From IMG/VR virus record IMGVR_UViG_3300011977_000424: 20,000 nucleotides of DNA; one strand, 5' to 3'. Numbering within the stretch: position 1 is the first letter of the stretch; each line of letters begins with the position of its first letter. This DNA comes from an uncultured virus (IMG/VR IMGVR_UViG_3300011977_000424) (lineage: Duplodnaviria; Heunggongvirae; Uroviricota; Caudoviricetes). Shown one piece after another: positions 1 to 19,328 of the stretch. The notes under the pieces are model-generated. The model was given only the letters and a program-made list of their open reading frames with translations, was not told the DNA's origin and ran no database searches. Made by a program: the position numbers and the translations under genes.

Positions 1-480
1 TCCGATCTTATTCAGGAAGCGGATAAGGTAGTGCTTAACCTTTCTCCACAAACTAAATTCCTCGGGTGTAGCCGGGCCTTCTTCGGCAATGTCGGAAAAT
101 ACTTCCTGTGCGGCCTCGCTGTATGGGTTGTTGTCGGTGAGGTCTACACCTCCTAACTCCTCTGCCTTATCCAGTATGCGGTCGCGCAACTCCTTGCCGG
201 CACTCTCAAAGATGAAGGTGCCAAACTGCTTCACGGCATCGTCGCTACCTAACAGTGCGCGCAATCCCTCGTGGCCTAACTTCTCATGGAACACGGTGCG
301 CTTTACATCGTCTACTCCCTGCATAGCCGGTGTATAGACATGCACACTGCCGTCCTTCCAGTCGTACCAACCTTTGGTACCGTCGCCTCCTTGGATCTCA
401 CGGCGTAAGCTCTCGTTGCTGATTGTGCTCATGTTGTCGAAGTGCACGGGCATGCCTCCCAACTGCTCGGCGGTTTCCTG
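1..480 (-). other. Zincin-like metallopeptidase domain (polyvalent MPTase type), possibly truncated by the window edge
   Basis: KGWYD...VHVY...DVKRTVFHEKLGHEGLRALLG (HExxxH at 271-288), then EAAQEVFSDIAE and SLWRKVK. Confidence 0.8.
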
Positions 481-3400
481 TGCGGCCTCAACCTGCAAGC
501 GGTACTGTTTATCGCCTTCCTGGTCGGTGAGCTTCGTCACCACAACGGCGCGTGCGCCTTTGAGCTCGGGAATAACCTTGCCGGCGGCCTCAACGCTGAA
601 ACCGTTGCCTAAGCTCTCCTGCACCCAGTTCTCCAGTTCACTTTGTGTAAAGCCTTTCTGGTAGGCACGTATCTTGCCTTTCTTATCGGTAACAAGTATC
701 TCGCTCGGGCTGTCAAGCTCTATCTTCTGCTTCTGTTTCTCGATCTCCTTCGCGTCGCGCACATTGATGATAAGCTTACCACCTGTTTTCATGTGGCGTA
801 CCATGTCACTTAGTACGTTGGCTCTCCAGTCGTCGGGAATAACATTGAGCACGGCGTTGCTGATTACTACGTCGTAGTCCTTATCAATGGCGGCATAGTC
901 GGTGAAGGTGGGGGCGCCTGCCTCGCGGTGTTCGGCTGGGTATGGTTCCACATCATCTACGGTAAAGTTGAATCCGGCGCTCTGGCCGTTCTCACTCTGT
1001 CCGCGTAACGTCATGGTACCATAGCCTAAGCCACTGCTGGCATCAAGGACGGTGAGCGTCTTACCGGTGCGCTCCTGCTCGCGCTGCATCCAGTTGCCTA
1101 TCTTGATATAGGTTTTCTCGGTGCTGCGTATCTGCGTGGAGTGCTGGCCGGTGCTCGTCTCTTGATCCTCAATCCAACGCTGGCCAAACTCATCAAACAG
1201 TGCGGTGCTACTGCGTTTGCTGATGTCGTTTGTACTATTTTTGTTACCCTCGTCGCCTTCGGGCTTCTTATCCTTGTTGTCGGCTGTGAGTTTCTTATAT
1301 TCAGCGTCGATTTTCTTCTTTTGCTCCAGGGCCTCGGCAAGCTCGGCTTCACGTGGGAAATTAGGTTCTCCGGGGTCGCCTCCCTCCAACTTATGTTTGT
1401 ATTCATCAATGGCCTGCTGATAAGCTTTGCCATTGTTGATTACTTTCTCCAACATGCGGCGGTAGGTCATACCGGCGGCGGTGTCGTCGTCGCTGAGCAC
1501 ACCTTCGTACTTAATCTTTGATGGGGCACGGAGAATCACTTTGCGGACTGGCTGAGTGCTGATTTTGAGATCAGTAGTAGGCGTGCCTACCTCAGCATCT
1601 ATGCCAAATCCGGACAGTTTCACCATTTCACCCTTCTTCAGCAAAGAATGAATATACTTGCCTGCCTCTCCGGCCTTGGTGAACTTCTGGCCCTCGGGGT
1701 GCTTATCAGAAGTGACGGTGACAGTAGAAGGATATTTACCTTCTTTGTCTGGCTTGAAGCCTGCGTCGGTGATAATCTCCTGGTCCCTGGCGTTGCCTCG
1801 TTTCAATGCCTCGAAGTTGGAAAGTGAGCGCTTATCACGGTAGAACTGATTAACTCGCTGCTCATGCTCTACCATGTATTGGCGCTTCGCCTTAATCAAC
1901 TTGTCCACCTTCTTATCCATCTTGGACTTGTCAAGGATGATTGGATTGCCGGACAGAAGGGCGACAACGCTTGCTGGGTCGAAATCGCTATCATCACCGG
2001 CGGCTCCTTCGTCAAAGCTTCGTGCCTCGCTTCCATTGCTGGCGCTTACCTTAAAGGCGTCGATCATCCTCTGTTTGGTAGACACAAGCTGATATTTATA
2101 GAGATCCAAACTTTGCTCGGTAGCATAGTAGAACACTTCTACTTTGTCATCGTTCTTGTCTCTTGCAAGCCAGTTGCCCTGACGGGCGCCACGGCCATTC
2201 TCCTGTGTCACGTTGGCTGGGTTCCAACTCATATCTACATGGTGGATAGCAACCATGCGCTGTTGAATATTCAGTCCTGTACCGGCGTTCTTAGCACCTC
2301 CAATGAGAATACGAACGGTACCGTCGTTCATCTTCTTACAAAGCTCAGCGCGTTTCTTGTCTGTATTAGCCTTGTGAATATCGAAAATCTCTTCCTTGGG
2401 GATTCCGTAATCAGTGGAGAGACGATTGATGAAGTCTGTGTATACGTCATATTCCTTCTTACCGTCGGGCACACCAAGGTCACAGAAAATAACTTGTGTG
2501 CCTTTGTCAGCACTGAATTTGTCGTATATTTTCTTTACGTTGTCACACACGTAGGTAATCTTACCTCCGTCGCCGTCGTCCATATCGGGCTTCACCAACT
2601 TAACGTTGATGGCTGCCTTAGTACTGATATTGGTTGCCAACAATGCCCACGGTTGATCCTGTCCACTCGCTGTTTTGTCGGGGATACCAAAATATCCTCC
2701 ATGATGGTTCCTGACCATGTTCAACACTTCACGGGTAATCTCTTTAAGTGAATCACTGGCTGGTACCGTGACGACGTGGACATTCATCTTCGGCTTGGGC
2801 AACTGTAAGTTGAGGTCGTTGCGCACATCGGCTACCTCTGTATAGAGCTTCGCAAGCTCTGCCAGGTTTTCAAAGTTCCTAAACCGTGCCTTGTCTACCA
2901 ATTCGCCTTTGTAGTCGAACTCGCCTTCGGTAGAACACTCTGCAAAGTTGGCGGCCCAGGCATCAAAGGTATTGAAGCCAAGCTCCTTCATCTTGTTGGG
3001 GCGTATATACTGGAACAGACTGTACAACTCCACAAGTGAGTTACTGATGGTGGTACCTGAAGCAAGTATCAATCCTTGGTCGCCTTGGTGAAGCTGCTGC
3101 AGATAGCGTGCTCCACAAAGCAAGGCCATAGAGCGTGCACTTCCTTCGGGGTTGCTAAGTCCGGCGATCCTGTTATGGGTTGTGACGTATGCAAGGTTCT
3201 TGAATTGCTGGCACTCGTCCACAAACAGATAGTCCACGCCTAAGTCCTCAAAGGTAAACTCGCGGTCTACCTTCCTATCTAATAGACGCTGGACCTTTAC
3301 CTTTAGTCGTTCTCTTCGCTTCTCCAGTGCCTTCTGTTGGCGCTTGGTGAGTTGAGAGTTGCCGGACGCCTGCTTTAGTATTTCTATCGCTGCTTCAAGC

Positions 3401-6400
3401 TGGTCGATCTGTTCTTGCAAAATACCGGTCTCTATTTCTTCCTTGTGGGGCAACATACCATATTGCTCATGGCTCAGGATAACGCAATCCCAGTCGTTCA
3501 CGGCAATGCGTGAAAGCATCTGCTTGCGGTTCTCCTTCTTGAAGTCGTTGTCCATAGGAGCAAGCACACGCGCAGTAGGGAAGGCTTCGTGAAACTCCTT
3601 CACCATCTGTGGCACGGTAGCCTTCAATGCAATAATCATTGGCTTTTTGGCAATGCCCATACGGCGCATTTCCATAATAGCACTGTGCATAACCAACGTC
3701 TTGCCGGCGCCGACAATATGATCAATAATGCCTCCGCGATTGTTAATGAGCATCCAAACGGCATCCTTCTGATGAGGGCGCAAGGTCTTACCCTGCAAGC
3801 CTGGTATCTGGAGGTGGCTTCCGTCAAACTTCGGAATAACGGTAGTATTAAACTTCTCGTTATAAATCTTGGTTAGGCGGTCGGAAATATCGTGGTGCGC
3901 ACTGATAAAGTCCTCGAATTTCTCGCGGATCTGGTCTATCTTATCGTTGGCACTGTTGGTCTCGTCCTCGTCGGTATATTCGTGGCCGTCTCTGTCTTTA
4001 AGTCTGACAGTTACCTTATTGTTCGTTAATGCGGCCTCTATGAGTTTTTGATTATTGCAGTGCTCGGTCTTCCACTCGTTGGCTTTGCCGGATGTCTCAT
4101 AGCCTTCAATATAGACGTTAAACACGTCGGCTTCTGGACTATAAACAATACCGGTGTTGGCATTATAGCGGTCTACGCCTAACAGGTCTTGAATGAAGGC
4201 GGTATAGATGTCGTCGGGTACCCAACGGGCTCCCATGTGGATGGCAATACCAATAAATGGGATGTCGGCTGGCTGCACGGCTTTCAGAGCCTCAACATTC
4301 CTGTCAAAGCGGTGATCCATCTTCGCGGCGGCCTCAGCTTCTTTCAGCTTGGCTTTAACATTGCCACTAAGATATAAGTCGCGCATTTGGTAGCCTCCAC
4401 CGGGTTCCTCAAACACAACGCCGTCTACCTTGTCTATCCAGTCCGGGCCTAACTTAGATTCCATGTACTCGGGGCGTATCTCTCCATACTCGGCGAGTGA
4501 CAACGTAATCATTTCAGAAGGCGTGCTGGCGCTGTCAAGGTCAATCTTGCTCTTGATGGTACTCTTCTCGAAGATGTCGCTAAGGCCGGCAAACTTGCCG
4601 TCGTTCATCTTCTCCAGGGATAGGATGCTATAACCGTCGATGTCCTTCTTGATAAAGTCGTTCTTCTTATCATTCAGACGGCCATAGTGGGCTACAAAGT
4701 TGTTGTAGGCCTGTTTGAGCTTGGCACGCAACAGTTTCACCTGTGCTTCTTCTGCTCCTCCTATCTCCTCGGCAATGAGCTGCTTCATGGCGGTGCGCAC
4801 GGGGATCATCAGGCGTATCTTGGCGGCCTGGCTCGCAAGTTTAGGATCGGCAAGGAACTGGAAGGTTCCTGATTTGTCGCCTTTGGGCTTGGATAGGTAG
4901 CCAAACTTGCCGTTCTGCTCCACAATGTTACCGTCGCCTTGGTAGTCACCATTGCCTACATACTCTTCGCGCACTGCGTCGTAAACCTGACGTGAGCTCT
5001 TGGTGGTATCGTAAAGCTTACCCTTGCGGCTGGCTGGTACCACGTATTTGTCGATGAGGTCTGTGAGCTTCTGGGCTATCTCGGCGGTGCTCAGGTCTGA
5101 GGTGAGGCCGTAAGCGTCGCCTCTGTACTGGTTACCAAGTTTGATGTTGCCGATAACCATTTCAGGATGCTTTCCGTAATAGCCATTGTAGTGCACAACG
5201 GCGCTTTCCCACTTCTGCTGTATCTCTTCTTCATAGTCGCTCAGGAATGGAGTTTCTATGTCAGATAGGTACTGCTCGGTGCGTGTGGCTGTCTTATCCT
5301 CTCCGTCTTTATACTTGCGGAAGAAGATAATATCAGTAACAGGATTGGTACCGGCTCCTTTGAAGGCGTTATCCGGCAAACGCACGGCTCCAAGTATCTC
5401 ACAGTTGTCTGCGATATACTTGCGCACAAGCTGGTTGCCCTTCGTGTCCATGATGGCATTGCTGGTCATTATATAACCAATGCCTCCGGGCTTCAAAAGG
5501 CTGATGTTCTTAACCGTGAAATAGTTGTGGATGCGGCTCTGAGCAAACTTCTTGACGGGTTCACTGGTGCCCTTCCATGACGGATCGTTGACGGCAATAT
5601 CGCCAAATGGGATATTACTGCCTACTACGCTCATACTATTGTCAGGGAATCCGGCATCCTGGAAACCGATAATCCTAATGTTGGCATCGGGATAGAGCAA
5701 CTTCACAATATTACCGGTGAGCCAATCAAGTTCGGTACCGTAGATCTGGGTACGCTGCTGCATGCTCTTAGGCATGGTTCCTTCAAGCACACCACTACCG
5801 ATACTGCCGTCAAGGAAACTGCCTCCTCCCTTGTAGCCTGCACGGTCAAGGAAGTGGTTAATGCCTCGGGCTACATCAACAGGGGTGTAATAGCTCGTCA
5901 GGGCGGCATGTTGGATGTCGTCAAGTAGTTTGTGCTCGTTGTGAGGGTCTATTTCCTCGAGTATGTCGGCAAGCTTAGCTACATCTGCTGATCCACGACG
6001 GCGCATGTAGTCGTAATCATACCACATACTGCCGTCGGTGCCTCCCCATCCTCTGAACTTGCCAAGCTCGGCACGCTCCTCGGGGGTGGCTGGTCTGCCC
6101 TGGCGCAAACAGTCTCTCAGTATCTCAAGGGCGCGTATGTTAGTGCGCAAGCGCTGGCCGGCGTTCATGTTGTCGATGTCGGTGGCATCGTCGGGATAGA
6201 GATAGTTGCGCGTGTTAAGCGGCTTCTCTTTCTCGCTTGCGGTCTTGGTACTGTGATCGTCCGGCCTTATATCGTCCTTTACTTCTGGCTTGGGCTTTGA
6301 GGCTGGTTTGCTTGCTGGCGTCTTGCTGCCAGTCGGCGCTGGCCGTCCTCCACGATCTGGTTTATCCAGTCCGCCATTGACGGGTCGCTGTCCTCCTCGT

Positions 6401-9400
6401 CCTCCGTCTGCATGTACTGTTCCTGCATCTGGGCTCTCAGTATCTCCGAAATCTGATCTGTCGAATAAGTCCCCTGAACTCGTAGGTCGTGTTCCTGGTC
6501 GTCGTACGCTTCCTGAGTGTCCTCCAGGCTTGCTTCCAGTTGTCCCTGCTGAAGAAGCTGCTCCAGTTCCTCCGGCCTGAACTCCTGCATCAGATCCAGT
6601 CTTTGCTGTGCCCAATACTCCCGGCTTTGGATTAGCTGGTTTCTCAGCTCCTCCACCTGTTGCTGTTGTTTCTTGTCCATGGTTATCTGTCTTTACTTCA
6701 TGTTCTGTTGGCAAAGATACGGAATTTTCCGGCTTCTTGGTCTCAGGAAGGGTAATATCTTCCCAATCGGCCACTTCATACATCACTGGAGCCAGGCCGG
6801 TATCAAGCACGGGCTGGCCGGTTGTCTCAAAGTCGGTAACGGTGGCCGGCTCGCCTTTGTATATCACCTTATCACCGATATTCAGTTTCGGGTGCTCGGC
6901 ATGGGCGGCGTTCTCACGTGCAAGTAGCTCCTCGGCGGCATCTATCTGGCCCTTCACCTTTTCAAGCTCTATTTCAAAATGACGGTGCTTGTTCAGTGTA
7001 TGGCTGCCATTCATGCTGTTTGTTAGCTGGTCTCTGAGATCTCTTAATCTCGTCAGCTCTTGTTTGAGAACATCGGCGGTATCAGTAGCATGGTCAGATG
7101 CATATCTAACTGCGGCTTTGGCGTTCACATCCTTCAAGGCGCTAAAGAACTTTGATGAGCTCAGTGTGAGAAGGTTCTTCTCGCTTAGATAATCTTCATC
7201 GGTAGGCTTTAATGGGCTGGCGGCTTCATCTTGCTTGGCTGCCTTCCTCTTCTCGTAGTCGGCAATAAGCTTGTTAGCCTCATCAACGGCTTTCTTTACA
7301 AGCTGGGTAAACTTCTCATCACCTACGGCGCTCTGTGCCTCAGCTATCCAACGTTTCAGATAGTCGCGCTGTTCATCGTTCTGCATGGGTTGTTTCCCAC
7401 TGCGGATGGCATCAACCATATCACGCACAATGAAGTTGCGCATGAGCTCGAAATCTTCAATACGTTTGAGCACATGTTTGCTGCCTTGTGTCAATGCAAG
7501 GTCTATCTTGGCCTGCTCAAGTATCTTGTTGATGCGTGCAAGGTCGGGGCGTCCGCACTCGTTCCATACGAAATAGAACTTATCGCGCTCGGGGTCACCC
7601 TTCATTCCTCTCAATACGGCATATTCGTAGGTAGGCTCGTCGATATAGTGAAGATGGTCGCCGGCATCGCTAAGGATCTCATAACCTTTCTTTCCGTCGT
7701 GTGACTTCTGCATCTTCACTTGGTTCTTACCCTCGCGTGCCCACTGGTCGATGTATTCAGCAACAGTCTTATAACCTTCTCCCCAGTCCTGCTTCTCATT
7801 CAGGAGCATCTTAGCCATTTCGCGCTTGCGTGGGGTAAGGGTATTAAGATACTGCTCCACTGCATCGGCGGTGCGGTTATCATTGCCTCCTTCCTGTGGT
7901 GCTGGATCCTCGGCGGCTGGTTGCACGGTGTCGGTAGTCTTAATGCCTAACTGCTCGTCGGCTTTCGGGTTCTGGGGCTCTATCATGTCAAACAAGGATG
8001 GCTCCTGAACTGTTGCCTTCTTTGATTTGGCTGCCTTGGTGGGCTTAGACTTTGGCGCTGGTGTCTCGGGAACTTCATAGCCAGTACTCCTCGCTAAACG
8101 CTTCATATCCTCTAAGAAGGTGGAAAGCGGTGTATCAACGGCTGTGAAATGGTTACTCTCGCTTCGTCCTTCTCCCTGCAGGCGGTACATGATACGGCCT
8201 AACACAAGGTCGTCAAAGTCGTTGCGGTCAAGATTCAAATTGATGTAGATATACTTGCCGGTGCCCGGAAGGTCTATCTTCATATAGATGTCACCTCCTA
8301 TCGGGGCAAGGTTAGCATTGGCAAGGTTGCGTTTGTTGGTCTTTTGGCCAAGGGCGGCATAAATCTCCTTTGCCAATCGGTTGGCGTCCTTCAACGCTAA
8401 CTTTTCTGCCGACTTCATATAACCATAACTCTCATGCTCGGGGCTATTGGGGTCATGCTTGTAGAAGCCTAACAGGGCAAGTTGCTCATCTACCTTCTCT
8501 AACTGCTCATCAATCTTCTTCTGGGCGTCGTTTACTTCATCCTCAGTTGTTGCTGTTTCTGCAACACTTTCTGCTTGGCTTGCAATAGCCTCTGCTTGGC
8601 TTGCAATAGCCTCTGTATTTGCTGGTTCGTTTCCTGTTTCATCGTTATTCTGTTTACCTAATACTGATTCTGCAAACTTCTTGGCATCGGCCTCTCCGGA
8701 TTCAAAAACAAATCCTGCCTTGCCAAAGCTGGAGTAATAGCCTCCAAAACTCTTTACCTGTTTCTTAAGATCAAGGAACTTGTCTCTGTCGAAACGCTCG
8801 GTGAAGTTCACTACCCAAATATCAATGCCTTTCTTCTTGTGCCAACGCTGAGTGATGGAGTAGCCGGGGTTATCCTCGGCCTTGTCTATCATTTCTCCTC
8901 CGTCGGTACTGCCAATGGTGGGTGACGGGATGGGCTCGGGTGCCTGCGCCTCCACGGTGGGGGCTTCGGGCTCTTCTGGCTTGTTCGCTGCCTTGCCACT
9001 GTTCTCAGGCTTTGAAGCCTGAGCTACTTCATTGCGGCGGTTCACCTCTGCCAACAGACTGTCTGCATCCGTAACCTTGATTGGCTCGGCGGCTGTTTTC
9101 TCCTCCTTGGTTGGATCAAACTTCTCAACGTCGAAGTTGTCTACCTCGTCGTGGCTCGACATTTCCTTGCGATACTCCTTCATATCGTCCATCTGTCGTG
9201 CTGCATCGTAGAAAGCTTTGAGATATGGGCGTATCTTATCGCCACAGTCCTCAATCATTCTGCGTGCATACTCGGCAAACTTCCTTGCGCCGGCCTCAAT
9301 ATGGTACATGGCCATCTGACTACCAATCATGAACAGTTCAGGATCAATACCTGAGTTGAGGTTGTTCAACTTATCGCGCATGCGCTTCTTCAACTGCTCA

Positions 9401-12400
9401 TAAGCATCATCGGTGATGATCTTATTATTGGTCTTGCGCTTTTTGCTGCCTCCGGCCTTGGATTGCTCCTGCTTCTTCTCGGCGTCTTTCTTGGCCTTCT
9501 GTTGCTTTTGCTTTTCCTGATTGGCTTGCTCTGCCTGCTTCTGCTCTTCTGGGCGCACATGGTCCATATAGTCTTGAAGGGCATCACGCTCACCCATAGC
9601 TTTCAAGAGTGTGGAGAATAAATCTACACTCTTGTTGCCTCGGAATGGTCCGGTCTGCTCGCCTTTCTCCACTCGTGGGGTAAGCTCGTCAATAGCTTGG
9701 TCGCGGTCACGGATAGCGGCATTGATGAGGCCGGGCTTCATCAGCTTGCCTTGCTTCTTTAAGTTCGCGGCCATAATGTTATATGCCTGTTTGGTGATAG
9801 CATCGGTGGTACCGGCAATATCAGCCTCAGCAACATTCATGGATGTTACAGGGAGATACTTCGGACCTGAGACGACATTATAAGTGCCGTCCTCGTTCAC
9901 GCTATCTATCTTAGCCATCTGGCCGCGATACATAACAAGTTCACCCTTTTTATACTTGCTCTCAGGCTTCTCTTCTGGTGCTGACTTAGGCTTGGGAATA
10001 CCACCTATAACAAGGTGCTGCTGCACGTAGGCTTTATCCTTTGCAAGCTTGTAATCGGCAAAGGGCTTGGTCTTGCGGTGGCTGCTCTCTACCCAGGCCT
10101 TGAAGTCGTCCTTGCTCACCTCGGTAACGGTGCCTACCTTCCATCCCTTTTCATACTGTGACTTGTAAGCTTCAATGGCGGCTTCCTTGGATGGGAAACC
10201 GTACATTACCTTGTGCTCATCAAAACTGCCGTCGCTCTGGTTCACCTGGTCTACAACATACACATTTCCGGTCGTAGGATCGTCACTGAGATAGACGTCG
10301 ATATGGTCGCCGTCTACACCTTCGGTGCCTTTGATGTAACCATAGTCATAGTTCATCTTTACGCTCCATTCCTTGCCGTCCTTGCCATGGCCGGTGCGCG
10401 TGGATCCATTCGGATTTTCAATAGTAATGTCGTAACCGTCAATCTTCACATGGCCCTTCTTATAGTTGCCGGCTTCCTTTTGCGCGTCGGTCGGGTGGGT
10501 GTCCACCTCCTTGCGCGCTGCTGCAATATCGCCACTGCTGGCACTCTTTTCACGAGTGTCATTGCCAGGTGCATTTTTCTGCTCATTTCTTTGCATGGTA
10601 GCGGAATTTTCACTACCTTTGCCTTCAGAAGAAGCGTTATTCTCTTGCGTAGGAAGGAGGTCCGGCACATCATTTTGATGTTCAGCTAAGCGCCTGTCAG
10701 AGCTGTTGGAGAGTAACGCTTGCTTTGTGTATTTACGTCTGTACTCCGTAAGCTTCTGCTTGATCTTGTTCTCGTTATTATAGTGGCTGCTTACTGAAAC
10801 TTCAAGGCCTTCTTGTGATACTGTAACTGATGTAAAATACTTGGTGGTGGTGCCGTCAGACTTCTTGAACGTCTTTACGAATACATAGGAATAGGGGCGC
10901 TCGGTTATCGTGCCTTCCTTAGCTTCGCTTGGCTCTATGAAAATAACATCTGGGTCGGTAAGCGTAAGAGAAACCATACCAAACTCCTTTGTCCTTTTCT
11001 TATCCACAAGCTTATTGTACTGATGTTCTCCCATCTTCACCTTACCGATAGGTGTGCCTATCTGGTTGTTAAAGCCAAATGTAGACATCCAATTTTCAGG
11101 TGTAAGGCTTATCTCAGGGTCTACTACGGCGCCCTGCGACATGGCCTTAATTATTGAGTCTGCTTTATCTACAGAGAGGGGGGCTTCACTCTCCGGCTCC
11201 ATCACGGCAATATCATCGCCGCTGGTGCCTACTTCTCCTGATTTTGCTTCTGACTGTACAGGTACGCCTCCGTTAGCATGGCCATTGCCAGTTGGTACTG
11301 GCGCTTGCGCTGGCTTACGTTCCGGTTCTGCAGTATGCGTACCTTCAACGCCGGGCTGAGAAGGTTCTTTTCTTGGCACAGGCGTTTCGCCTTGGCCATT
11401 TCCTGTTTTAGCTGCTGGTCGTTGAGGCTCTTGATCCATTCGCCTGCTGCCTGCAACTGTGGGTTGTTGCTGATTTTCTCCATTTTCTATTTCGTTTAAC
11501 AGTTCTGCCTGTTCGGGCAACATCTGGTTAATAGCTTCCTCATAGGCTTGACGCTCTTCCTCACGTTTGGCAATATCATCGGCAATAAGTCCGTCGATGT
11601 AAGCTTCTACTTCAGGACTGGGTTCATCGGCGCTCATGGCATCAAGATAGTCTTGATACTCCTGGATCTTCGCCTGACGCTCGGCTGCTTCCTCCTCCAT
11701 GTATTGTCTCTCCTGCTCTTCCTGAGCACGAAGGAACTCTTCGGCATCGGCAATGCGGTTGCGGACTATCATGTACGTGATATCCGATGGTTTGCGTGCT
11801 GAGCTGAGCAAGTCAAGCAAGGCGTTGCGGATCTCCTGGGTGCCTACGTTCTCAAAGCCAGGAGTGCTAAGGGCGGATTCCCACATTTCGTGAACAATGG
11901 CATCTACACTCTTCCCATGTCCCTTGGGCGCAAGGAAATAGTTAATAGTGTTGCTGTCATATCCATGGCCAATGCCACGACGGGTGCCAAGCTCTTGCTG
12001 TAAACCGGTGTACTTAACGCCTCCTCGCTCTATGCCTTCCCAGTTGATGGTATGGGGGCCAAGGTGGCTTGCCACAAATTCTTCAAGGGTCTGTGGCTCT
12101 TCTGCGTCAAGCAAGAATCCGGCCTCGGTACCGTCGTACACCTCGTGGGCCTTCTTCCAAAGGTCTTGCACGTTCTTTGCACCGGAAAGGGCGGCTGCTC
12201 GCTGCTCTTCGGGTGGTAGCTTCTTAATCTCTTCGGCGTTGCGCTGGGCATAGATGTTGGTAAGGGCGCCTAATGTGTCCTTCAACTGTTTCTGTGTCTG
12301 GAGAAGTGTTTTCTCCTGCTGCTCCAGTGCGGCCATTCTGTTGGCGGCCTCTTGGATCTCTACGTCGCTGAGCTCGGCGGCTCCATCCTCGTAGTCACCG

Positions 12401-15400
12401 ATAAGGCGGCGCACGTCGGCCATTTCGCTGCCTACTCCGTTACTCCACTGCTTTTGCAGCTCCATGCGCTTATCGGTAATGAAACGCTCAGCGTCACCTT
12501 GGGTGGGGAAGTTAGCGAGTAAGCTCTCGCCACTCAACTCTTTTGGCTTCTCAGGTGCCAACACTTGCGGATTGGCCTTGGCTACCTCTGCGCGTGCATG
12601 CTCAACGGCCTTGCCTACTTTGTTGGCTCGCTCCTGGGCAAACTGCGCACGCTGCTCACCGGTCATAACGCCTTTGCGGATCTCTCCCCACTTGCGCTGC
12701 CGTTGCAGATTGTCGGAAAGCTCTTCTTGCAATCGCTTGATGAGTGCGTCTTTCTGCGCTTTCTGCTCTGGAGTGTACATATCGCCGTTGGTCTCCATCC
12801 ATTGGGTGTGGCGGTCCAGGTCGAAACGGATGCGGCGCTCATGCTCCTTCAACTGGTCCTTCTCGGCCTGTATATTCTTCAGCACTCCGTCGGTCTTGCC
12901 GTCGGGGGCGGTCGTTCTCAGATACTCGGCGGCTGCGCTTGCGTCGGTTCCCTTAGCTGAATAGTCGGGGTGGCCTTCATTGTAGCCAACAATACCGGTA
13001 GTGAAACGATCCTTCTGCTCATTGGCCTTGTTCTGCTGGGCTTCCTGCTGGAGCTGGGCTTCTATCTTGGCATAGTCGGCCTCAGCTACATAACCGGAGG
13101 CTTCCAGTGGGCTCAGGGCAAAACGGCTGCCGTCCTCTCCCTCGAAGATAGTGTTGCCGTTTGGATCCTGGCCGGCTACCTTCACATGAAGGTCTTTGCC
13201 GGCCACTCTCAGGTCGGTTTCCATACCTGGCATTAGTCCTACGCTGGCTCTCAGGTTCCTATACTGATCGTCCAACTGCATGGTGAAGGTGTCCACATCG
13301 GCTTTCAATGCGTCGTTCAACGGCACGGCCTCACCAAGCTGCTTGATACGTCTCACTGGTACCTGTTGTGTCTGGCCGTCCTCATCAACAACAATAATAC
13401 CTCCGTACTGGTTGGTGACGTCACCACTCTTCACGTAGGCTTCGGTACCGTCGTCAAGCAATACGGGAATAATAGTGCCCTGGTCGCTGACTACGGTCTG
13501 CAATTGCTCTCGCCGTTCCTGCTCATAGTCGGCGGTCTGCTGATAGATGCTGTCATCCTGTCCTGCCTGTGCTTCCTGCACATCAAGATAAGCCTCAACG
13601 GCTTCTCTTTGGTAGGGCGTGAGGTTCTGACCGTCCAGGAACTGTTGCACGGCATCATCGTCACCGGCCTCAACAAGTGCGTTAAGGTCGTGAACAAACT
13701 TCGCGTTCTTTGGCTCTGACATTGGGAAAAGCATGTCCATACGGTGACGGGCAAGTCTATTCTCATATTCCAGTTGTGGCAATACGCTCCTGTCCTCGGC
13801 GGCTGATGCTCCGTGGTTATAGGCTGCCTCTCTACGCTGCTGGGTAGGTGTCAATGGTGCTTCGCCTTCTCCGGCGCCTGTGCCTCCCTGTGGTGCTTCT
13901 GGGCCTTGTCCTGCCGGCTGTTGTCCTGCTGGTCCTACTGGCTTTTCAGGAGAAACACCACCGTCCCCACCGGTGCCTCCGCTATCGACTGGGGGCAATC
14001 CGCGTGGGGCGTCGGGTGGTGTCGGGACGTTGGGAGATTCGTCTATATCTTGTGGCGCCTGGTCGGCTGGCTGTTCAGGTTCCTGTGACTGTTGTGCTCC
14101 TGGGCCTGCCTGCTGGCGCTCTTCTGTTGCATGGTCGTAAATGGTTGGTGGCGCGTTCTGAATGTCGGCGCGCAATGCTTCCTGATAAGCCTTAACAATA
14201 CGTTGTTCTGCTGGCGTGCGGAAATGCCCGTCGCCGGCATCTACTACTTGCTCTCCTTCCTGCAAAAGCGATGTGGCCTCACGCTTTGTGTGGCCCTTCA
14301 TAGCTGCTTGAAGTGCACCTTTGCTCAGGCCCATGGATGCTTCAAAGTTCTCTGCATACATTGTGGCTGCCTCGGTGCCTTGCTGGAGATCATTGTAAAC
14401 CTGGCGGTAGGAGTTGAAAAGATTAGCCTCATCTTCGGTGAGCTCTTCACCTCGGTTGCGGCGCTCGGCTACGTCTGAGAACTTCTTGGCGTTCTGGAAC
14501 AGATAGACGGCTTTCTTCTCTTCATCGGTGAGCTCTTCACCTCGCTGTTGCTTGGAAACAACTTGCTCGTACTGTCGGCGAAGGTCGTTCTGGAGATAGA
14601 TATTGTTATACATCCCCTCCAGGGCTCCGGTAGTGTTCACCTCTTTCTGCCAACGTAGTCTGTCGTTGTCTTTGTCTGCATCTGCGGCGCTATCGTAGTG
14701 GCGGCGGTCTATAACTCCTCCATCTTGGTTGTATGTTGTCAGGGTGGCTCCGTCGCCGTATTCGTCGGGTGTAACCTCGCTGTTGATAACAGGTGAGAAG
14801 GCATCTGGGCGCTTGCCCTCGATAACATTCATCATCTTGGCCTTGGTAGTCTCTGGAACATCTGGATCACGAAGTAACTGCATATACTCGGGGGTGTGCT
14901 GGCGCATAACCTCGTAGTCTGCATCTGCCTTGCTCCTTACTCCTGGCTGCTCTGCCTCTTGTGGGCCTCGGCTGTCCTGGCCCATCTTCAAGAAGGCATC
15001 GTAAAGACCTGCATATCCCTTTTCATTCAACACATGAAGGTCGTCGTCGTTGAATTGAAACTTTCGGTTGAACTCTTGCTGATTACGGAAGTTGAGATAC
15101 TTGGTAGCCTTGTGGGGCAAGCCTAACAGGTTCAAAGAAACATAGCTCTCTAAGAAACTTTCTGCGGCATCCTTGCCGGTGGGTGTGAAGGAAGGATCGG
15201 AGGCCATACGCTCCAGGAGTGAAGATGTGCCCATAATACCGGCGTCGGCGGCTGTGCCTAATTGACCTCCAAGCACATTAGCCCACACACCTTTGCCTCT
15301 GGTAAGGAACTGGCCCACGGTGTTTCCCTGCATGAGTGCACCCATGGCGGCGTTTTTAGCGGTGTTCACAACGGTATGGCCTACTATCTTGCCTACTGAT

Positions 15401-17480: not shown

Positions 17481-18812
17481 TTAATCAAGGAGTGAAGAAG
17501 CACTACCTGAACTCTTCTTGCGGCCACTGAACTTGTCAGCAATATAACCGTTGTACTGGTCGATGAGCTCTTTATTCCAGTTCTTCTTATCCCATGAGTG
17601 TATGTTATTCTGCTGCATGAAGTCGCGGCTCTCATTTGGATGGAGACGGCGGTTTCTTGCCCATATCCGGTAACGGTCCTTCTCATATCGCTTACCATAG
17701 GCCTGTTCGTTGGTGGCTCGTGTCGCTGCCCTGCTATGAGCTGCACTTGCCTCGCTGGCATCTGCACTGGCGTTGCTTGCTCTGGTCTGTGCCTGAACAC
17801 GTTCTCTAACCAACGGTGCCAAAGCTTCTTCGCGTTTATCTTTGTTGTTGATGGCTTCCGTCTGTGCTTCATGCTGTTTCTGCTGAGCTGCGATATTGCC
17901 TACATTAGCATCAGCAACGGCTTTCTTGTTAGCGGTATCACCTTCTATGCCTGCCTTGCGTGCTGCTTCGGTGTCCTGCTTGGCTCCATACAGTTTTTCC
18001 TGGGCTTTTGCCAAATCATTCTTGCGCTCATTGGCTTGCTGGTTCCAAAGCTGGGTAAGAAGGTTCTGGTTATTCTTGTCACGTTGCTGCATGGTGGCAT
18101 CGTAAAGTGCCTGTTGACGCTTGGAAAACTCAGGAGCTTCAATCTTCTGGGCTGGTCCTCCTGCGAGTGTCCCGGCAAAGTTGCCAAGGTGGGTGAGCAC
18201 TAAACCTAAGCTGTCCCACATCTGTTGCCGTTTGGCTTTCTTCTCCTCTGCTGCGTTCTGGGCTGCGCTCTTGGTTATGTCCTGGCCCTGCATGGCTCCC
18301 ATGACGTTGATAATGTCAATGGGCTTATCATTTTGATTGGCCCAGTTCCAATAGGAGCTAAGCACGTCGCCTATGCTATCGTTGCTGGTCTTTGCATAGT
18401 CGCTGATGCTCTGGCCGTGGTTCCATGCTTCTTCGGCGGTGTCGTAGATGGTTTCACCGTTGGGGCCAATATGAAAGCCTAATTTCGGTGGTTGGTTCAG
18501 TAGTCCGGCGGTCGGATCAGTCAGTGAGCCAAGTGAAGAAGGATCAACCTGCATTGAGGCTGGGTTATTCTGGCCTCCTGCCTGCTGATTCTGGTCTGTG
18601 GTTGGCTGTCCTGTTCCTCCGGTACCTGGATTATCGTCCCCACCTTGCTGTTGGCTCTGGTCGGACACATTAGTATTAGCCTTGGCATTTCCGGTGCCAG
18701 GGTTATCGTCACCTCCCTGTTGCTGATTCTGGTCGGTATTGCTATTGTCATTAACAGACGTGCTATCAGACTGCGGTGTGGTGGTCTGTTTCTTCTCTTC
18801 TTCTTCTCCCAT
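17481..18812 (-). CDS. Putative internal-virion/ejection protein (443 aa): disordered Q/G/N/D N-terminus, hydrophobic segment, coiled coil
   Basis: ORF track. Hydrophobic WDSLGLVLTHLGNFAGTLAGG is followed by a long A/Q/K coiled coil. Separated from its neighbours by only 12 and 23 nt. Confidence 0.85.
   Translation of the reverse strand: MGEEEEKKQTTTPQSDSTSVNDNSNTDQNQQQGGDDNPGTGNAKANTNVSDQSQQQGGDDNPGTGGTGQPTTDQNQQAGGQNNPASMQVDPSSLGSLTDPTAGLLNQPPKLGFHIGPNGETIYDTAEEAWNHGQSISDYAKTSNDSIGDVLSSYWNWANQNDKPIDIINVMGAMQGQDITKSAAQNAAEEKKAKRQQMWDSLGLVLTHLGNFAGTLAGGPAQKIEAPEFSKRQQALYDATMQQRDKNNQNLLTQLWNQQANERKNDLAKAQEKLYGAKQDTEAARKAGIEGDTANKKAVADANVGNIAAQQKQHEAQTEAINNKDKREEALAPLVRERVQAQTRASNASADASEASAAHSRAATRATNEQAYGKRYEKDRYRIWARNRRLHPNESRDFMQQNNIHSWDKKNWNKELIDQYNGYIADKFSGRKKSSGSASSLLD
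18560..18738. repeat. Imperfect peptide repeats DQ(N/S)QQQGGDDNPGTG in the 443-aa gene
   Basis: Two copies 72 nt apart (~18619-18665 and ~18691-18738) plus a degenerate third (DQNQQAGGQNNP). Confidence 0.85.
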
Positions 18813-18824
18813 ATCTCAGTCCTT

Positions 18825-19328
18825 TTACCATGGTAAACTATTTGCGGCACTGGCAAGTCCTCCGGCGGCGCTGCTAATAGCACTCGCCTTGGCTTGTGCC
18901 TGGCCTAACTTTGCGTCTGCAAGATACTTTGAGAAAGTGTCAATCTGATTGTCGGCACTCTGCCAGGCTTGATCCTTGCGCGCCTGCCCACTCGCGGCCT
19001 GCTGCTGCATCATATTGCCAACGGTGCCTGCTGCTGCCTGTTTGGCCATGGCTGCACTCTCGTCGCTGCCTCCGGTCACAATGCTTGTGGCCTGAGCACG
19101 TGCATTAGCATCATCAAGTACTTGCTGGGCTTGCGTAACGGCGGCCTGGTTCTCGGCGCTCTGCGTCGGGTCCTGGTAGTACACTGCATCACGATGTGCC
19201 TTCACATCGTTAATGCGGTTATTGTATAGCTCCTGCTGCTGGCGGTAGCCTTTGGCAAGCGCCTTGCCGGCAAAGATTCCACCGGCTGCGCTGGCGGCTC
19301 CACCTATAATGCCTCCAATAAGTCCCAT
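18825..19328 (-). CDS. Putative DNA pilot/ejection protein (167 aa; architecture like P22 gp7 or T7 gp14)
   Basis: N-terminal Gly/Ala hydrophobic helix MGLIGGIIGGAASAAGGIFAG, Q/A coiled-coil middle, Gly/Ala C-terminus AISSAAGGLASAA. A-rich leader. Function inferred from architecture only. Confidence 0.85.
   Translation of the reverse strand: MGLIGGIIGGAASAAGGIFAGKALAKGYRQQQELYNNRINDVKAHRDAVYYQDPTQSAENQAAVTQAQQVLDDANARAQATSIVTGGSDESAAMAKQAAAGTVGNMMQQQAASGQARKDQAWQSADNQIDTFSKYLADAKLGQAQAKASAISSAAGGLASAANSLPW

What the first reader, a model, noticed from the sequence alone, without database searches (positions are those of the whole stretch)
10590..10725. Hidden antisense promoter and cloverleaf-like RNA in the tail of the PBECR2 RNase domain: candidate RNA antitoxin or decoy
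Seen: a perfect TTTG-N20-TACCTTTG promoter on the + strand inside the giant gene. Right after the expected start site is a ~90-nt RNA with a 14-bp closing stem and three inner hairpins. The two wobble pairs (T10640-G10713, T10645-G10708) are G-U on the + strand but A-C mismatches on the mRNA, so the structure favours the antisense strand. The protein over this stretch (QALLSNSSDRRLAEHQNDVPDLLPTQENNASSEGKGSENS) looks like an unconstrained linker. One loop displays AGGAGG. Known: BECR-fold proteins include tRNA anticodon nucleases (colicin E5/D) and mRNA interferases (RelE). Inference: this RNA is a cis-encoded substrate mimic or antisense antitoxin that silences the RNase in the lysogen or producer cell. 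That would be a toxin/RNA-antitoxin module fused inside a virion protein. It is not a canonical tRNA (no CCA end, non-standard arms). I know of no description of this arrangement, but cannot check.
Basis: partly seen in the sequence, partly recalled or inferred. Interest (0 to 1): 0.92.

Follow-up and report, generated by a model that had tools for sequence, protein, structure and literature searches.

The report
Antisense RNA gene beside phage RNase domain
Hidden on the opposite strand of a giant phage protein gene, right after a predicted RNA-cutting domain, lies a small folded RNA gene with its own promoter that is conserved in many related phages and may be the RNA antidote that keeps that nuclease in check.

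Summary
Window 10627 to about 10735 (+ strand, antisense to a 7103-codon polyvalent-protein gene) encodes a roughly 100-nt four-way-junction RNA: closing stem P1 plus three hairpins.

- **Structure:** in 20 distinct homologues 97% of pair cells are paired, against 37-51% in slid controls. 18 of 30 pairs show compensatory changes (0 of 500 shuffles reach this).
- **Strand:** G.U pairs favour the + strand, 55 to 3.
- **Nucleotide-level selection:** synonymous codons are frozen over the element (87% identical codons, against 42% in the flanking domain).
- **Promoter:** a Bacteroidota TAnnTTTG -7 box sits 1-7 nt upstream in 25 of 33 distinct family members.
- **Generality:** 115 of 121 distinct PBECR2 loci carry an antisense -7 box 100-160 nt after the domain, followed by one of at least seven structured RNA classes. 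9 of 10 PBECR1 loci do likewise.
- **Stand-alone form:** two stand-alone PBECR2 genes have the same RNA convergent in non-coding DNA.

The "unconstrained linker" claim is wrong. No Rfam, tRNA or literature match was found. Expression and function are untested. The best reading is an RNA antitoxin or immunity partner of the RNase.

An earlier scan note (e1-6982212) mentions antisense RNA genes inside polyvalent genes elsewhere.

The parts
10590..10593 (+). -33-like TTTG, 20 nt upstream of the -7 box
   Evidence: Among other PBECR2 loci only 19 of 111 boxes have TTTG at a 19-20 nt spacing, so this part is weakly conserved.
10614..10621 (+). -7 box TACCTTTG (sigma-ABfr consensus TAnnTTTG)
   Evidence: The box lies 1-7 nt before model position 1 in 25 of 33 distinct family members. 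An antisense box is present in 115 of 121 distinct post-PBECR2 segments, against 6 of 121 on the sense strand. The consensus is quoted in PMC7366714 (passage).
10627..10627 (+). Predicted transcription start (A of the conserved CAGAAG)
   Evidence: Inference from the fixed spacing to the -7 box and from the conserved C-A after it in most classes. No transcript data.
10629..10726 (+). Match to covariance model R1 (whole RNA core)
   Evidence: 112.9 bits, E 4e-33. It is the only copy in the 61.7-kb record.
10632..10645 (+). P1 5' arm (pairs with 10708-10721)
   Evidence: 13 of 14 pairs show compensatory changes.
10649..10666 (+). P2 hairpin (10649-54 / 10661-66; loop AGGAGG at 10655-60)
   Evidence: Invariant in 20 of 20 distinct rows. 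There is no covariation, so support comes from conservation only. The loop is ACAAGG in divergent members.
10667..10681 (+). P3 hairpin (10667-72 / 10676-81)
   Evidence: 3 of 6 pairs compensatory in alignment A4; 5 of 6 in A6.
10683..10705 (+). P4 hairpin (10683-87 / 10701-05; 13-nt loop)
   Evidence: 2 of 5 pairs compensatory in A4; 4 of 5 in A6.
10708..10721 (+). P1 3' arm
10720..10736 (+). U-rich tract after P1; possible 3' end or terminator
   Evidence: Read from the sequence and from homologues. Not tested.
10750..11052 (-). PBECR2 domain coding region (predicted BECR-fold RNase)
   Evidence: Pfam PF18810, E 7e-7. AF2 model pLDDT 90.8. The best structural neighbours are BECR toxins, at low Z of 5.0 or less.
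10087..10488 (-). InPase domain coding region, next domain after the element
   Evidence: Pfam PF18823, E 1e-55.
1..17457 (-). Giant polyvalent-protein ORF. It is 7103 aa in all and runs on beyond the window start.
   Evidence: Domains. The portal gene lies directly downstream.

Best explanation
Window 10627 to about 10735 (+) is a small RNA gene written on the antisense strand of the linker that follows the PBECR2 RNase domain of a virion-type polyvalent protein.

A host-type Bacteroidota promoter (TAnnTTTG) starts transcription at about A10627. The roughly 100-nt RNA folds into a four-way junction (P1-P4) and ends in a U-rich tract at the edge of the PBECR2 coding region. RNA and RNase form a conserved two-part module. 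The module also occurs as a stand-alone gene pair.

Most likely the RNA is the antidote of the RNase. It would bind and neutralise the PBECR2 domain directly, as type III antitoxins do, perhaps helped by pairing with the complementary mRNA. That would protect the lysogen or producer cell. It could also switch the injected nuclease off once the incoming genome is transcribed.

Shown: conservation, covariation, strandedness, promoter motif and linkage to PBECR2.

Inferred: transcription, the RNA's ends, binding and inhibition.

Sub-confidences: real antisense RNA gene about 0.9; functionally coupled to PBECR about 0.7; inhibitor by direct binding about 0.4. The overall figure given is for the statement as a whole (RNA gene that acts as antidote of the nuclease).
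For: **Structure**
- RNAalifold gives P1-P4.
- 97.0% of cells are paired against 37.5-50.9% slid; 18 of 30 pairs are compensatory; 0 of 500 shuffles reach this.
- On 33 distinct, wider members: 95.5% paired and 22 of 30 compensatory. That alignment was fitted to the model.

**Strand**
- 55 G.U cells against 3 A.C cells on the + strand.

**Nucleotide-level selection**
- Identical codon at identical residues is 0.87 over the element against 0.42 in the PBECR2 domain, for 17 of the 18 sequences given.
- The core stays conserved where it is non-coding, in L224.

**Promoter**
- A -7 box lies 1-7 nt upstream in 25 of 33 members. It is 25-40 nt away in 3 and has no exact box in 5.
- In the stand-alone loci it lies in AT-rich intergenic DNA.

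**Linkage**
- All 22 extra R1 hits in 212 loci are antisense to the coding strand.
- PBECR2 is directly N-terminal in 30 of 32. The genome hit L265 shows the same.

**Generality**
- 115 of 121 distinct post-PBECR2 segments have an antisense box, against 6 of 121 on the sense strand.
- The R1-negative loci carry other structured antisense RNA classes with G.U far above A.C: 90:8, 96:1, 53:1, 10:1 and 12:1.
- Class D has 16 of 33 pairs compensatory.
- Tandem PBECR2 domains each have their own RNA.
- 9 of 10 PBECR1 loci have an antisense box 58-150 nt after the domain.

**Toxin-like partner**
- Pfam PBECR2. Nearest folds are CdiA-CT tRNases, colicin D/E5, BrnT and RelE.

**Direct binding rather than pure antisense**
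- About 40 of 98 positions are invariant across homologues whose PBECR2 is only about 40-64% identical. A purely cis-antisense RNA does not need this.
Against: - No transcript evidence. No RNA run holding the stretch was available.
- Single-sequence folding is unremarkable: + strand z -1.25 to -2.37 against codon-preserving controls, with 42 better windows in the same gene.
- The promoter motif overlaps a conserved K-x-[ST] peptide, so part of its conservation could be protein-level in embedded copies.
- The -33 TTTG is missing at the right spacing in 92 of 111 boxes.
- Five of 33 R1 members lack an exact -7 box.
- P2 has no covariation.
- RNase activity of PBECR2 is only predicted. Structural Z scores are 5.0 or less, and Foldseek gives no match at E<=0.001.
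- RNA classes B and C are interleaved among near-identical PBECR2 domains on the (quick) tree. This does not fit strict one-to-one co-evolution.
- In L228 the RNA follows an LPD3 domain and precedes PBECR2.
- Linkage by descent alone would also keep the RNA and PBECR2 together.
Confidence: 0.5

Rival explanations
1. Type I-like cis-antisense regulator. The RNA acts only by pairing with the complementary stretch of the giant mRNA (or the 3' end of the stand-alone PBECR2 mRNA). That would trigger dsRNA cleavage or block translation, limiting production of the nuclease-bearing protein. There would be no protein contact.
For: The RNA is perfectly complementary to the mRNA by construction. In the stand-alone loci it converges on and overlaps the 3' end of the PBECR2 ORF. 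Antisense antitoxins that overlap the 3' end do the same; for example SR6/yonT, abstract of PMC5848175 in the listing. Structured stem-loops are usual in antisense RNAs.
Against: Pure antisense action puts no constraint on the sequence, yet about 40 of 98 positions are invariant and synonymous sites are frozen. In embedded copies, cutting the mRNA after PBECR2 would not prevent synthesis of the PBECR2 part. Classical type I toxins are small hydrophobic peptides, not a 150-aa RNase domain.
Confidence: 0.2
2. A real antisense sRNA with another job. It could be a substrate, cofactor or cargo of PBECR2. It could also be an anti-defence or decoy RNA aimed at host systems or rival elements, kept next to PBECR2 only by linkage.
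For: Polyvalent proteins are hubs of counter-defence modules (PMC5512222, passages). The invariant loops could bind a host factor. An earlier scan note (e1-6982212, unchecked) describes similar RNA modules chained elsewhere and proposed to silence rival elements. Classes B and C are interleaved on the PBECR2 tree.
Against: A promoter plus RNA occurs after essentially every PBECR2 and PBECR1 examined. Each of two tandem domains has one. None is seen conserved after other domains of this gene; the + strand has only 5 TAnnTTTG in 17.4 kb, about the chance rate. R1 was found in 2 of 151 Bacteroidales genomes, both next to PBECR2.
Confidence: 0.17
3. Not an RNA gene. The alternatives are a DNA-level element (a recombination linker for domain shuffling, or a single-strand DNA hairpin) or a feature of the coding or mRNA strand.
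For: It sits at a domain boundary in a mosaic gene family. Identical 25-nt stretches could promote recombination. The mRNA strand also folds, z -2.86.
Against: Compensatory changes in three helices. A G.U bias of 55:3 for the antisense strand. A conserved promoter box with free nn positions. Conservation in non-coding DNA of stand-alone loci.
Confidence: 0.04
4. Chance inverted repeat plus chance promoter-like motif.
For: The single-sequence statistics are weak. The 13-nt inverted repeat is one of 11 in the window.
Against: All the comparative results.
Confidence: 0.01

Closest known systems
Type III-like toxin-antitoxin pairs in which a structured RNA binds the toxin protein. Examples: AvcI/AvcD (PMC10511110, intro passage) and RCd22/AbiF of a C. 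difficile prophage (bioRxiv 10.1101/2025.04.15.648962, abstract).
   Same: A structured non-coding RNA is encoded beside a toxic enzyme gene on a mobile element. The proposed mechanism is direct neutralisation of the protein.
   Different: Here the RNA is a single copy, convergent and antisense. It is usually overprinted inside the coding sequence of a 7103-aa virion protein. The partner is a BECR-fold domain. Binding is not shown. The classical ToxI-type tandem repeats upstream on the same strand are absent.
Type I toxin-antitoxin pairs with antisense RNAs overlapping the 3' end, e.g. yonT/SR6 on prophage SPbeta (PMC5848175, abstract seen in the listing).
   Same: A roughly 100-nt antisense RNA converges on the 3' end of the toxin reading frame. 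It is carried on a prophage or mobile element.
   Different: The toxin is a predicted RNase domain, not a small membrane peptide. The RNA sequence is far more conserved than pairing alone needs. Most copies lie in the middle of a giant ORF.
Polyvalent proteins and PBECR domains of phages (Iyer et al. 2017, PMC5512222; passages read).
   Same: The host gene is such a protein: PBECR2, InPase, SNF2 helicase and methyltransferase domains, next to the portal gene.
   Different: That paper describes protein domains only. The word 'antisense' does not occur in it, and it describes no RNA partner or immunity factor for PBECR.
Cis-antisense sRNAs of Bacteroides with sigma-ABfr promoters, e.g. the DonS family (PMC7366714, passages).
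   Same: Promoter type, size range (78-128 nt) and antisense location.
   Different: DonS-type RNAs lie opposite susC 5' regions of the host chromosome. This family is phage-borne, linked to an RNase domain and has a four-way junction.
tRNA cloverleaf.
   Same: A four-way junction with a closing stem and three hairpins.
   Different: The closing stem is 14 bp, one loop is 3 nt and one is 13 nt. ARAGORN and Rfam give no match.

Membership tests
sigma-ABfr (Bacteroidota) promoter | TAnnTTTG at about -7 | tested here: met
   10614-10621. Conserved in 25 of 33 R1 members at 1-7 nt and in 115 of 121 PBECR2 loci.
sigma-ABfr (Bacteroidota) promoter | TTTG at about -33 (19-21 nt spacer) | tested here: inconclusive
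   Present in the window with N20. Found in only 19 of 111 other boxes. The -33 motif is not always found in the phylum (PMC7366714 passage).
sigma-ABfr (Bacteroidota) promoter | A mapped transcription start downstream | not testable with these tools
   No RNA run listed.
Structured non-coding RNA family | Helices supported by compensatory changes beyond controls | tested here: met
   P1, P3 and P4 covary. P2 is invariant only.
Any Rfam 15 family / tRNA / tmRNA | Match to a curated covariance model or a tRNA detector | tested here: not met
   No hit at gathering threshold. Only an irrelevant 14.7-bit lncRNA hit at E<=10. ARAGORN 0 genes.
Type I toxin-antitoxin | Cis-encoded antisense RNA overlapping the toxin transcript | tested here: met
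   The RNA is on the opposite strand of the PBECR2-bearing ORF in all 33 distinct members. It overlaps the 3' end in L224 and L211.
Type I toxin-antitoxin | Toxin is a small, usually hydrophobic peptide | tested here: not met
   The partner is a roughly 150-aa PBECR2 domain in a 7103-aa protein, or a 166-195-aa stand-alone protein.
Type I toxin-antitoxin | RNA lowers toxin mRNA translation or stability by pairing | not testable with these tools
   Needs experiments.
Type III toxin-antitoxin | Antitoxin is an array of direct repeats upstream of the toxin on the same strand | tested here: not met
   Single copy in the record. Antisense and downstream of the domain.
Type III toxin-antitoxin | RNA binds and inhibits the toxin protein | not testable with these tools
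   The complex tool takes no RNA. Inference only.
PBECR2 / BECR-fold RNase | Match to PF18810 above the curated cut-off | tested here: met
   29.9 bits against 27.1. Among the 30 R1-linked domains 23 are above and 7 below the cut-off.
PBECR2 / BECR-fold RNase | Fold like barnase / EndoU / colicin D, E5 / RelE | tested here: inconclusive
   AF2 pLDDT 90.8. The VIA wide list is led by CdiA-CT NC101 (Z 5.0), colicin D (4.1), CdiA-CT Kp342 (4.0), colicin E5 (4.0), BrnT and RelE, but all Z are 5 or less. Foldseek gives no E<=0.001.
PBECR2 / BECR-fold RNase | RNase activity and toxicity | not testable with these tools
   Prediction of Iyer et al. 2017 only.
Polyvalent protein (Iyer et al. 2017) | Many unrelated effector domains in one polypeptide, encoded among virion genes | tested here: met
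   PBECR2, InPase, SNF2/helicase and methyltransferase. Portal and terminase genes are adjacent.

The most novel reading that the evidence does not exclude
Phage BECR RNases (PBECR1 and PBECR2) of Bacteroidota would form a large, undescribed toxin/RNA-antitoxin system. Each nuclease domain would carry its own cognate structured RNA inhibitor gene, convergent on the opposite strand.

In giant virion-packaged polyvalent proteins that gene is overprinted in the linker, so toxin and antidote cannot be separated by recombination. Because the RNA uses a host-type promoter, it would be made from the injected genome within minutes. It would then act as a timer: the injected nuclease attacks host RNAs first and is then switched off so that the phage can express its own genes. 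In lysogens the same RNA would give immunity to the nuclease of superinfecting relatives.
Probability: 0.3. Interest if true: 0.93.

Novelty: new variant of a known kind. Interest (0 to 1): 0.85.

Why it matters
How phages tolerate the nucleases that they package and inject as parts of polyvalent proteins is open. The founding paper describes no immunity factor for PBECR domains, and 'PBECR' occurs in only 2 papers of the library.

A conserved antisense RNA gene after essentially every PBECR domain gives a concrete, testable candidate. It also defines several new structured RNA families in gut phages.

It is a clear case of an RNA gene overprinted on a protein-coding linker. There, apparent peptide conservation is really RNA conservation, which is a trap for annotation and for linker or domain prediction.

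If the RNA is an inhibitor, the module would be a compact RNase/RNA-off-switch pair of possible use as a tool in Bacteroides.

Tried and rejected
- **RNA-seq evidence:** no RNA holder listed for window 10300-11100. The 4 runs, from one study, are kept as contigs.
- **Rfam and ARAGORN:** nothing.
- **GenBank phage isolates:** tblastn with the PBECR2 domain found no match at E<=1e-3, so no cultured phage could be named. A blastn search found only InPase-region matches, for example a Bacteroides phage gene annotated DarB-like.
- **Foldseek against PDB:** no match at E<=0.001.
- **Earlier scan notes by sequence:** none.
- **Single-sequence folding statistics** cannot decide and were set aside in favour of comparative tests.
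- **AGGAGG loop as a ribosome-binding-like or 16S-pairing site:** rejected as a general feature, because the loop is ACAAGG in most divergent members. No conserved start codon follows, since that region is the covarying P3.
- **Integron attC-like, retron-like or DGR-linked readings:**
  - The stem ends do not have the attC core order. That motif is recalled, not tested.
  - The record does hold a reverse transcriptase, but it lies about 33 kb away.
  - The RNA travels with PBECR2 in loci fetched without regard to any RT.
- **L241 as a fully intergenic example:** rejected. The -7 box is degenerate and the short contig may carry a frame error.
- **Tree:** the careful tree search did not finish, so a quick IQ-TREE tree was used. 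Rows with internal stops or under 120 aa and duplicate proteins were dropped (87 rows kept).
- **L027:** a 16-bit R1 hit after a PBECR1 domain. It is too weak to count as a member. It was the lead for the PBECR1 survey.
- **Literature:** searches for an RNA partner of PBECR/BECR toxins found none. Supplements were not read.
Full report
**Context.** The window is the last 20 kb of a 61.7-kb IMG/VR record classed as a provirus. Its minus strand carries one ORF of 7103 codons (window 17457 down to 1 and beyond).
- Pfam finds PBECR2 (E 7e-7, 29.9 bits, cut-off 27.1), InPase (1e-55), SNF2/helicase and weak methyltransferase matches.
- The portal gene lies directly downstream, with a large terminase nearby.
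- This is a polyvalent protein in the sense of Iyer et al. 2017 (PMC5512222, passages read).
- The finding (10590-10725) lies between the PBECR2 and InPase coding parts.

**The observation in the single sequence.** TTTG-N20-TACCTTTG is at 10590-10621 on the + strand. The spaced pattern occurs twice in the window against 0.16 expected.
- The 99 nt from 10627 fold to -34.2 kcal/mol with a long closing stem (z -2.36). The mRNA strand gives -27.8 (z -2.86).
- This is not exceptional by itself. 42 of 3472 windows of the same gene fold better after GC correction.
- Codon-preserving controls give z -1.25 (107 of 1000) or z -2.37 (23 of 1000) for the + strand.
- The 13-nt inverted repeat is one of 11 in the window.
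- No tRNA and no Rfam family match.

**Homologues decide it.** Protein-guided searches of viral, metagenome and genome contigs gave relatives no closer than about 64% amino-acid identity.
- The "linker" peptide NSSxxxLAEhQxxVPDLLPTQENN is present in 16 distinct DNA versions.
- At the DNA level long stretches are invariant, synonymous positions included.
- Where two homologues share a residue they share the codon in 87% of cases over the element, against 42% in the adjacent PBECR2 domain (17 of the 18 sequences given were usable).
- RNAalifold on 23 sequences (20 distinct) returns a four-way junction:
  - P1: 10632-45 with 10708-21.
  - P2: 10649-54 with 10661-66, loop AGGAGG.
  - P3: 10667-72 with 10676-81.
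  - P4: 10683-87 with 10701-05.
- 97.0% of 598 cells are paired, against 37.5-50.9% with slid partners. 18 of 30 pairs have compensatory changes (13 of 14 in P1, 3 of 6 in P3, 2 of 5 in P4, none in the invariant P2). No shuffle of 500 reaches any measure.
- 55 cells are G.U on the + strand, and only 3 are A.C, which would be G.U on the mRNA strand. The T-richness of the + strand could explain only about 1.5 to 1. So the fold belongs to the strand antisense to the gene.

**A wider family.** A covariance model (R1) finds one copy in the record.
- Among 212 further loci it finds 22 more hits, including one weak 16-bit hit. All lie on the strand opposite to the coding strand.
- On the 33 distinct members 95.5% of cells pair and 22 of 30 pairs covary. 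That alignment was fitted to the model.
- The P2 loop is AGGAGG only in the window's subgroup and ACAAGG in most others.
- An exact TAnnTTTG lies 1-7 nt before model position 1 in 25 of 33, 25-40 nt before it in 3, and is absent in 5.
- The nn positions vary, and with them the encoded residue. The six fixed letters do not vary.
- TAnnTTTG at -7 and TTTG at -33 are the published sigma-ABfr consensus (PMC7366714, passage).
- Spacing and a conserved C-A place the start at about A10627. A U-rich tract follows P1.

**Linkage to the RNase domain.** PBECR2 is encoded directly before the element, in coding sense, in 30 of 32 distinct loci. 23 are above and 7 below Pfam's cut-off.
- In L228 the element follows an LPD3 domain and lies about 20 codons before a PBECR2 domain.
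- The weak hit L027 follows PBECR1.
- R1 was found in 2 of 151 Bacteroidales genomes searched. The second hit is again about 40 codons after a PBECR2 domain in a long ORF.
- Two loci are different and informative. In L224 (166-aa ORF) and L211 (195-aa ORF) PBECR2 is a stand-alone gene.
  - The RNA converges on its 3' end.
  - Most of the RNA and its TTTG-N20-TATCTTTG promoter lie in AT-rich non-coding DNA.
  - The neighbours are chromosomal-type genes: a pseudouridine synthase, a REase-ARP-like gene and a TonB-receptor plug.
  - The RNA core is conserved there too, so its conservation is not a by-product of the peptide.

**Generality.** Of 190 PBECR2-positive loci, 70 have R1 and 120 do not.
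- Yet 115 of 121 distinct 300-nt segments after the domain carry an antisense TAnnTTTG, against 6 of 121 on the sense strand. The 300 nt inside the domain carry one in 22 of 120 (antisense) and 1 of 120 (sense). The box lies mostly 100-160 nt after the domain.
- The R1-negative segments fall into at least six further sequence classes.
  - Five of them (B, C, D, F, G) were folded. Each gives a conserved multi-helix fold on the antisense strand with G.U far above A.C.
  - Class D was re-checked with the alignment tool: 16 of 33 pairs are compensatory.
- Tandem PBECR2 domains (L180, L228/L229) each have their own RNA.
- The RNA class is clustered on a quick PBECR2 tree (11 changes against 55 for shuffled labels). 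Classes B and C are interleaved among close relatives.
- 113 of 121 copies are embedded in a continuing ORF.
- PBECR1 (PF18809) was found in 9 of 401 Bacteroidales genomes. 9 of its 10 loci have an antisense box 58-150 nt after the domain. Most sit behind stand-alone 155-181-aa genes with a short hairpin-rich stretch between; the tenth is cut by a contig end. No matched genomic control was run for this small set.

**The protein partner.** An AlphaFold model of the domain is confident (pLDDT 90.8). Foldseek gives nothing at E<=0.001.
- The fold-wide search is led by BECR-type toxins, but with Z of 5.0 or less. By the tool's own note such values are not significant singly. The leading rows are:
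  - CdiA-CT NC101, Z 5.0.
  - Colicin D, Z 4.1 and 3.9.
  - CdiA-CT Kp342, Z 4.0.
  - Colicin E5, Z 4.0.
  - BrnT, RelE and YoeB.
- RNase activity remains a prediction.

**Interpretation.** Shown: a conserved, strand-specific, covarying RNA structure with a conserved host-type promoter box. It is overprinted on the linker after PBECR2. It belongs to a general pattern in which PBECR domains carry a convergent RNA gene.
- Inferred: that the RNA is transcribed, and where it starts and ends.
- Most likely function: antidote of the nuclease. The arrangement equals a toxin plus a convergent RNA, and stand-alone pairs exist. Each domain has its own RNA. The sequence invariance exceeds what cis-antisense pairing needs, which points to recognition by a protein. 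PBECR2 is the only constant companion.
- Known parallels are RNA antitoxins that bind their toxins: AvcI/AvcD and RCd22/AbiF. Another parallel is the 3'-overlapping type I antitoxins such as SR6. The element fails defining features of both classical types (see the membership table).
- Rivals are pure antisense control, another role for the RNA, or a DNA-level element. They are weighed in their own section of this report.

**Novelty.** Rfam has no such family.
- Iyer et al. 2017 never use the word antisense.
- 'PBECR' occurs in 2 library papers.
- Three further full-text searches found no RNA partner of BECR or PBECR toxins.
This is an unchecked lead that agrees with the general pattern found here.

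**Limits.**
- No expression data.
- No cultured phage with this domain in the GenBank set.
- All relatives come from metagenomes.
- The host is inferred as Bacteroidota from the promoter type and from a 64%-identical locus in a Prevotella MAG.

Noticed in passing
window 17216-17248 (+) and 17236-17253 / 17362-17379: A second TTTG-N21-TAGGTTTG match sits inside an 18-nt, 94% inverted repeat near the 5' end of the giant ORF (ATG at 17457). Each arm carries a TAnnTTTG box, one per strand (17241-48 on +, 17367-74 on -). The minus-strand box lies after the first ATG, so the true start or an internal promoter may be there.
   Followed up: no
G000 17711-19120 (-), i.e. L266:17714-19120: A 469-aa reverse transcriptase (PHROG 1423, E 2e-76) lies next to a 2286-aa protein gene (genome 19522-26382). 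This is possibly a diversity-generating retroelement.
   Followed up: no
window 16751-16866, 5966-5996, 15596-15656, 1046-1061, 13921-13951: These stretches of the giant gene fold better than the finding after GC correction, with z down to -4.3 on the mRNA strand at 5991 and -3.7 on the + strand at 16751. They were not compared with homologues.
   Followed up: no
L271-L280 (Bacteroidales genomes): PBECR1 genes, mostly stand-alone at 155-181 aa, are followed by a convergent TAnnTTTG box and a short hairpin-rich stretch. In several the hairpin is followed by GTAAAA. This is a likely second RNA family.
   Followed up: partly
L228/L229 (metagenome contig), element at L228:582-679: An R1 RNA follows an LPD3 domain and precedes a PBECR2 domain. 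That PBECR2 domain is itself followed by a class C antisense RNA.
   Followed up: partly
   Followed up: no
L224:1180-1260: The intergenic region of the stand-alone module holds two back-to-back TATCTTTG boxes. One faces the RNA gene and one faces the neighbouring pseudouridine-synthase gene.
   Followed up: no
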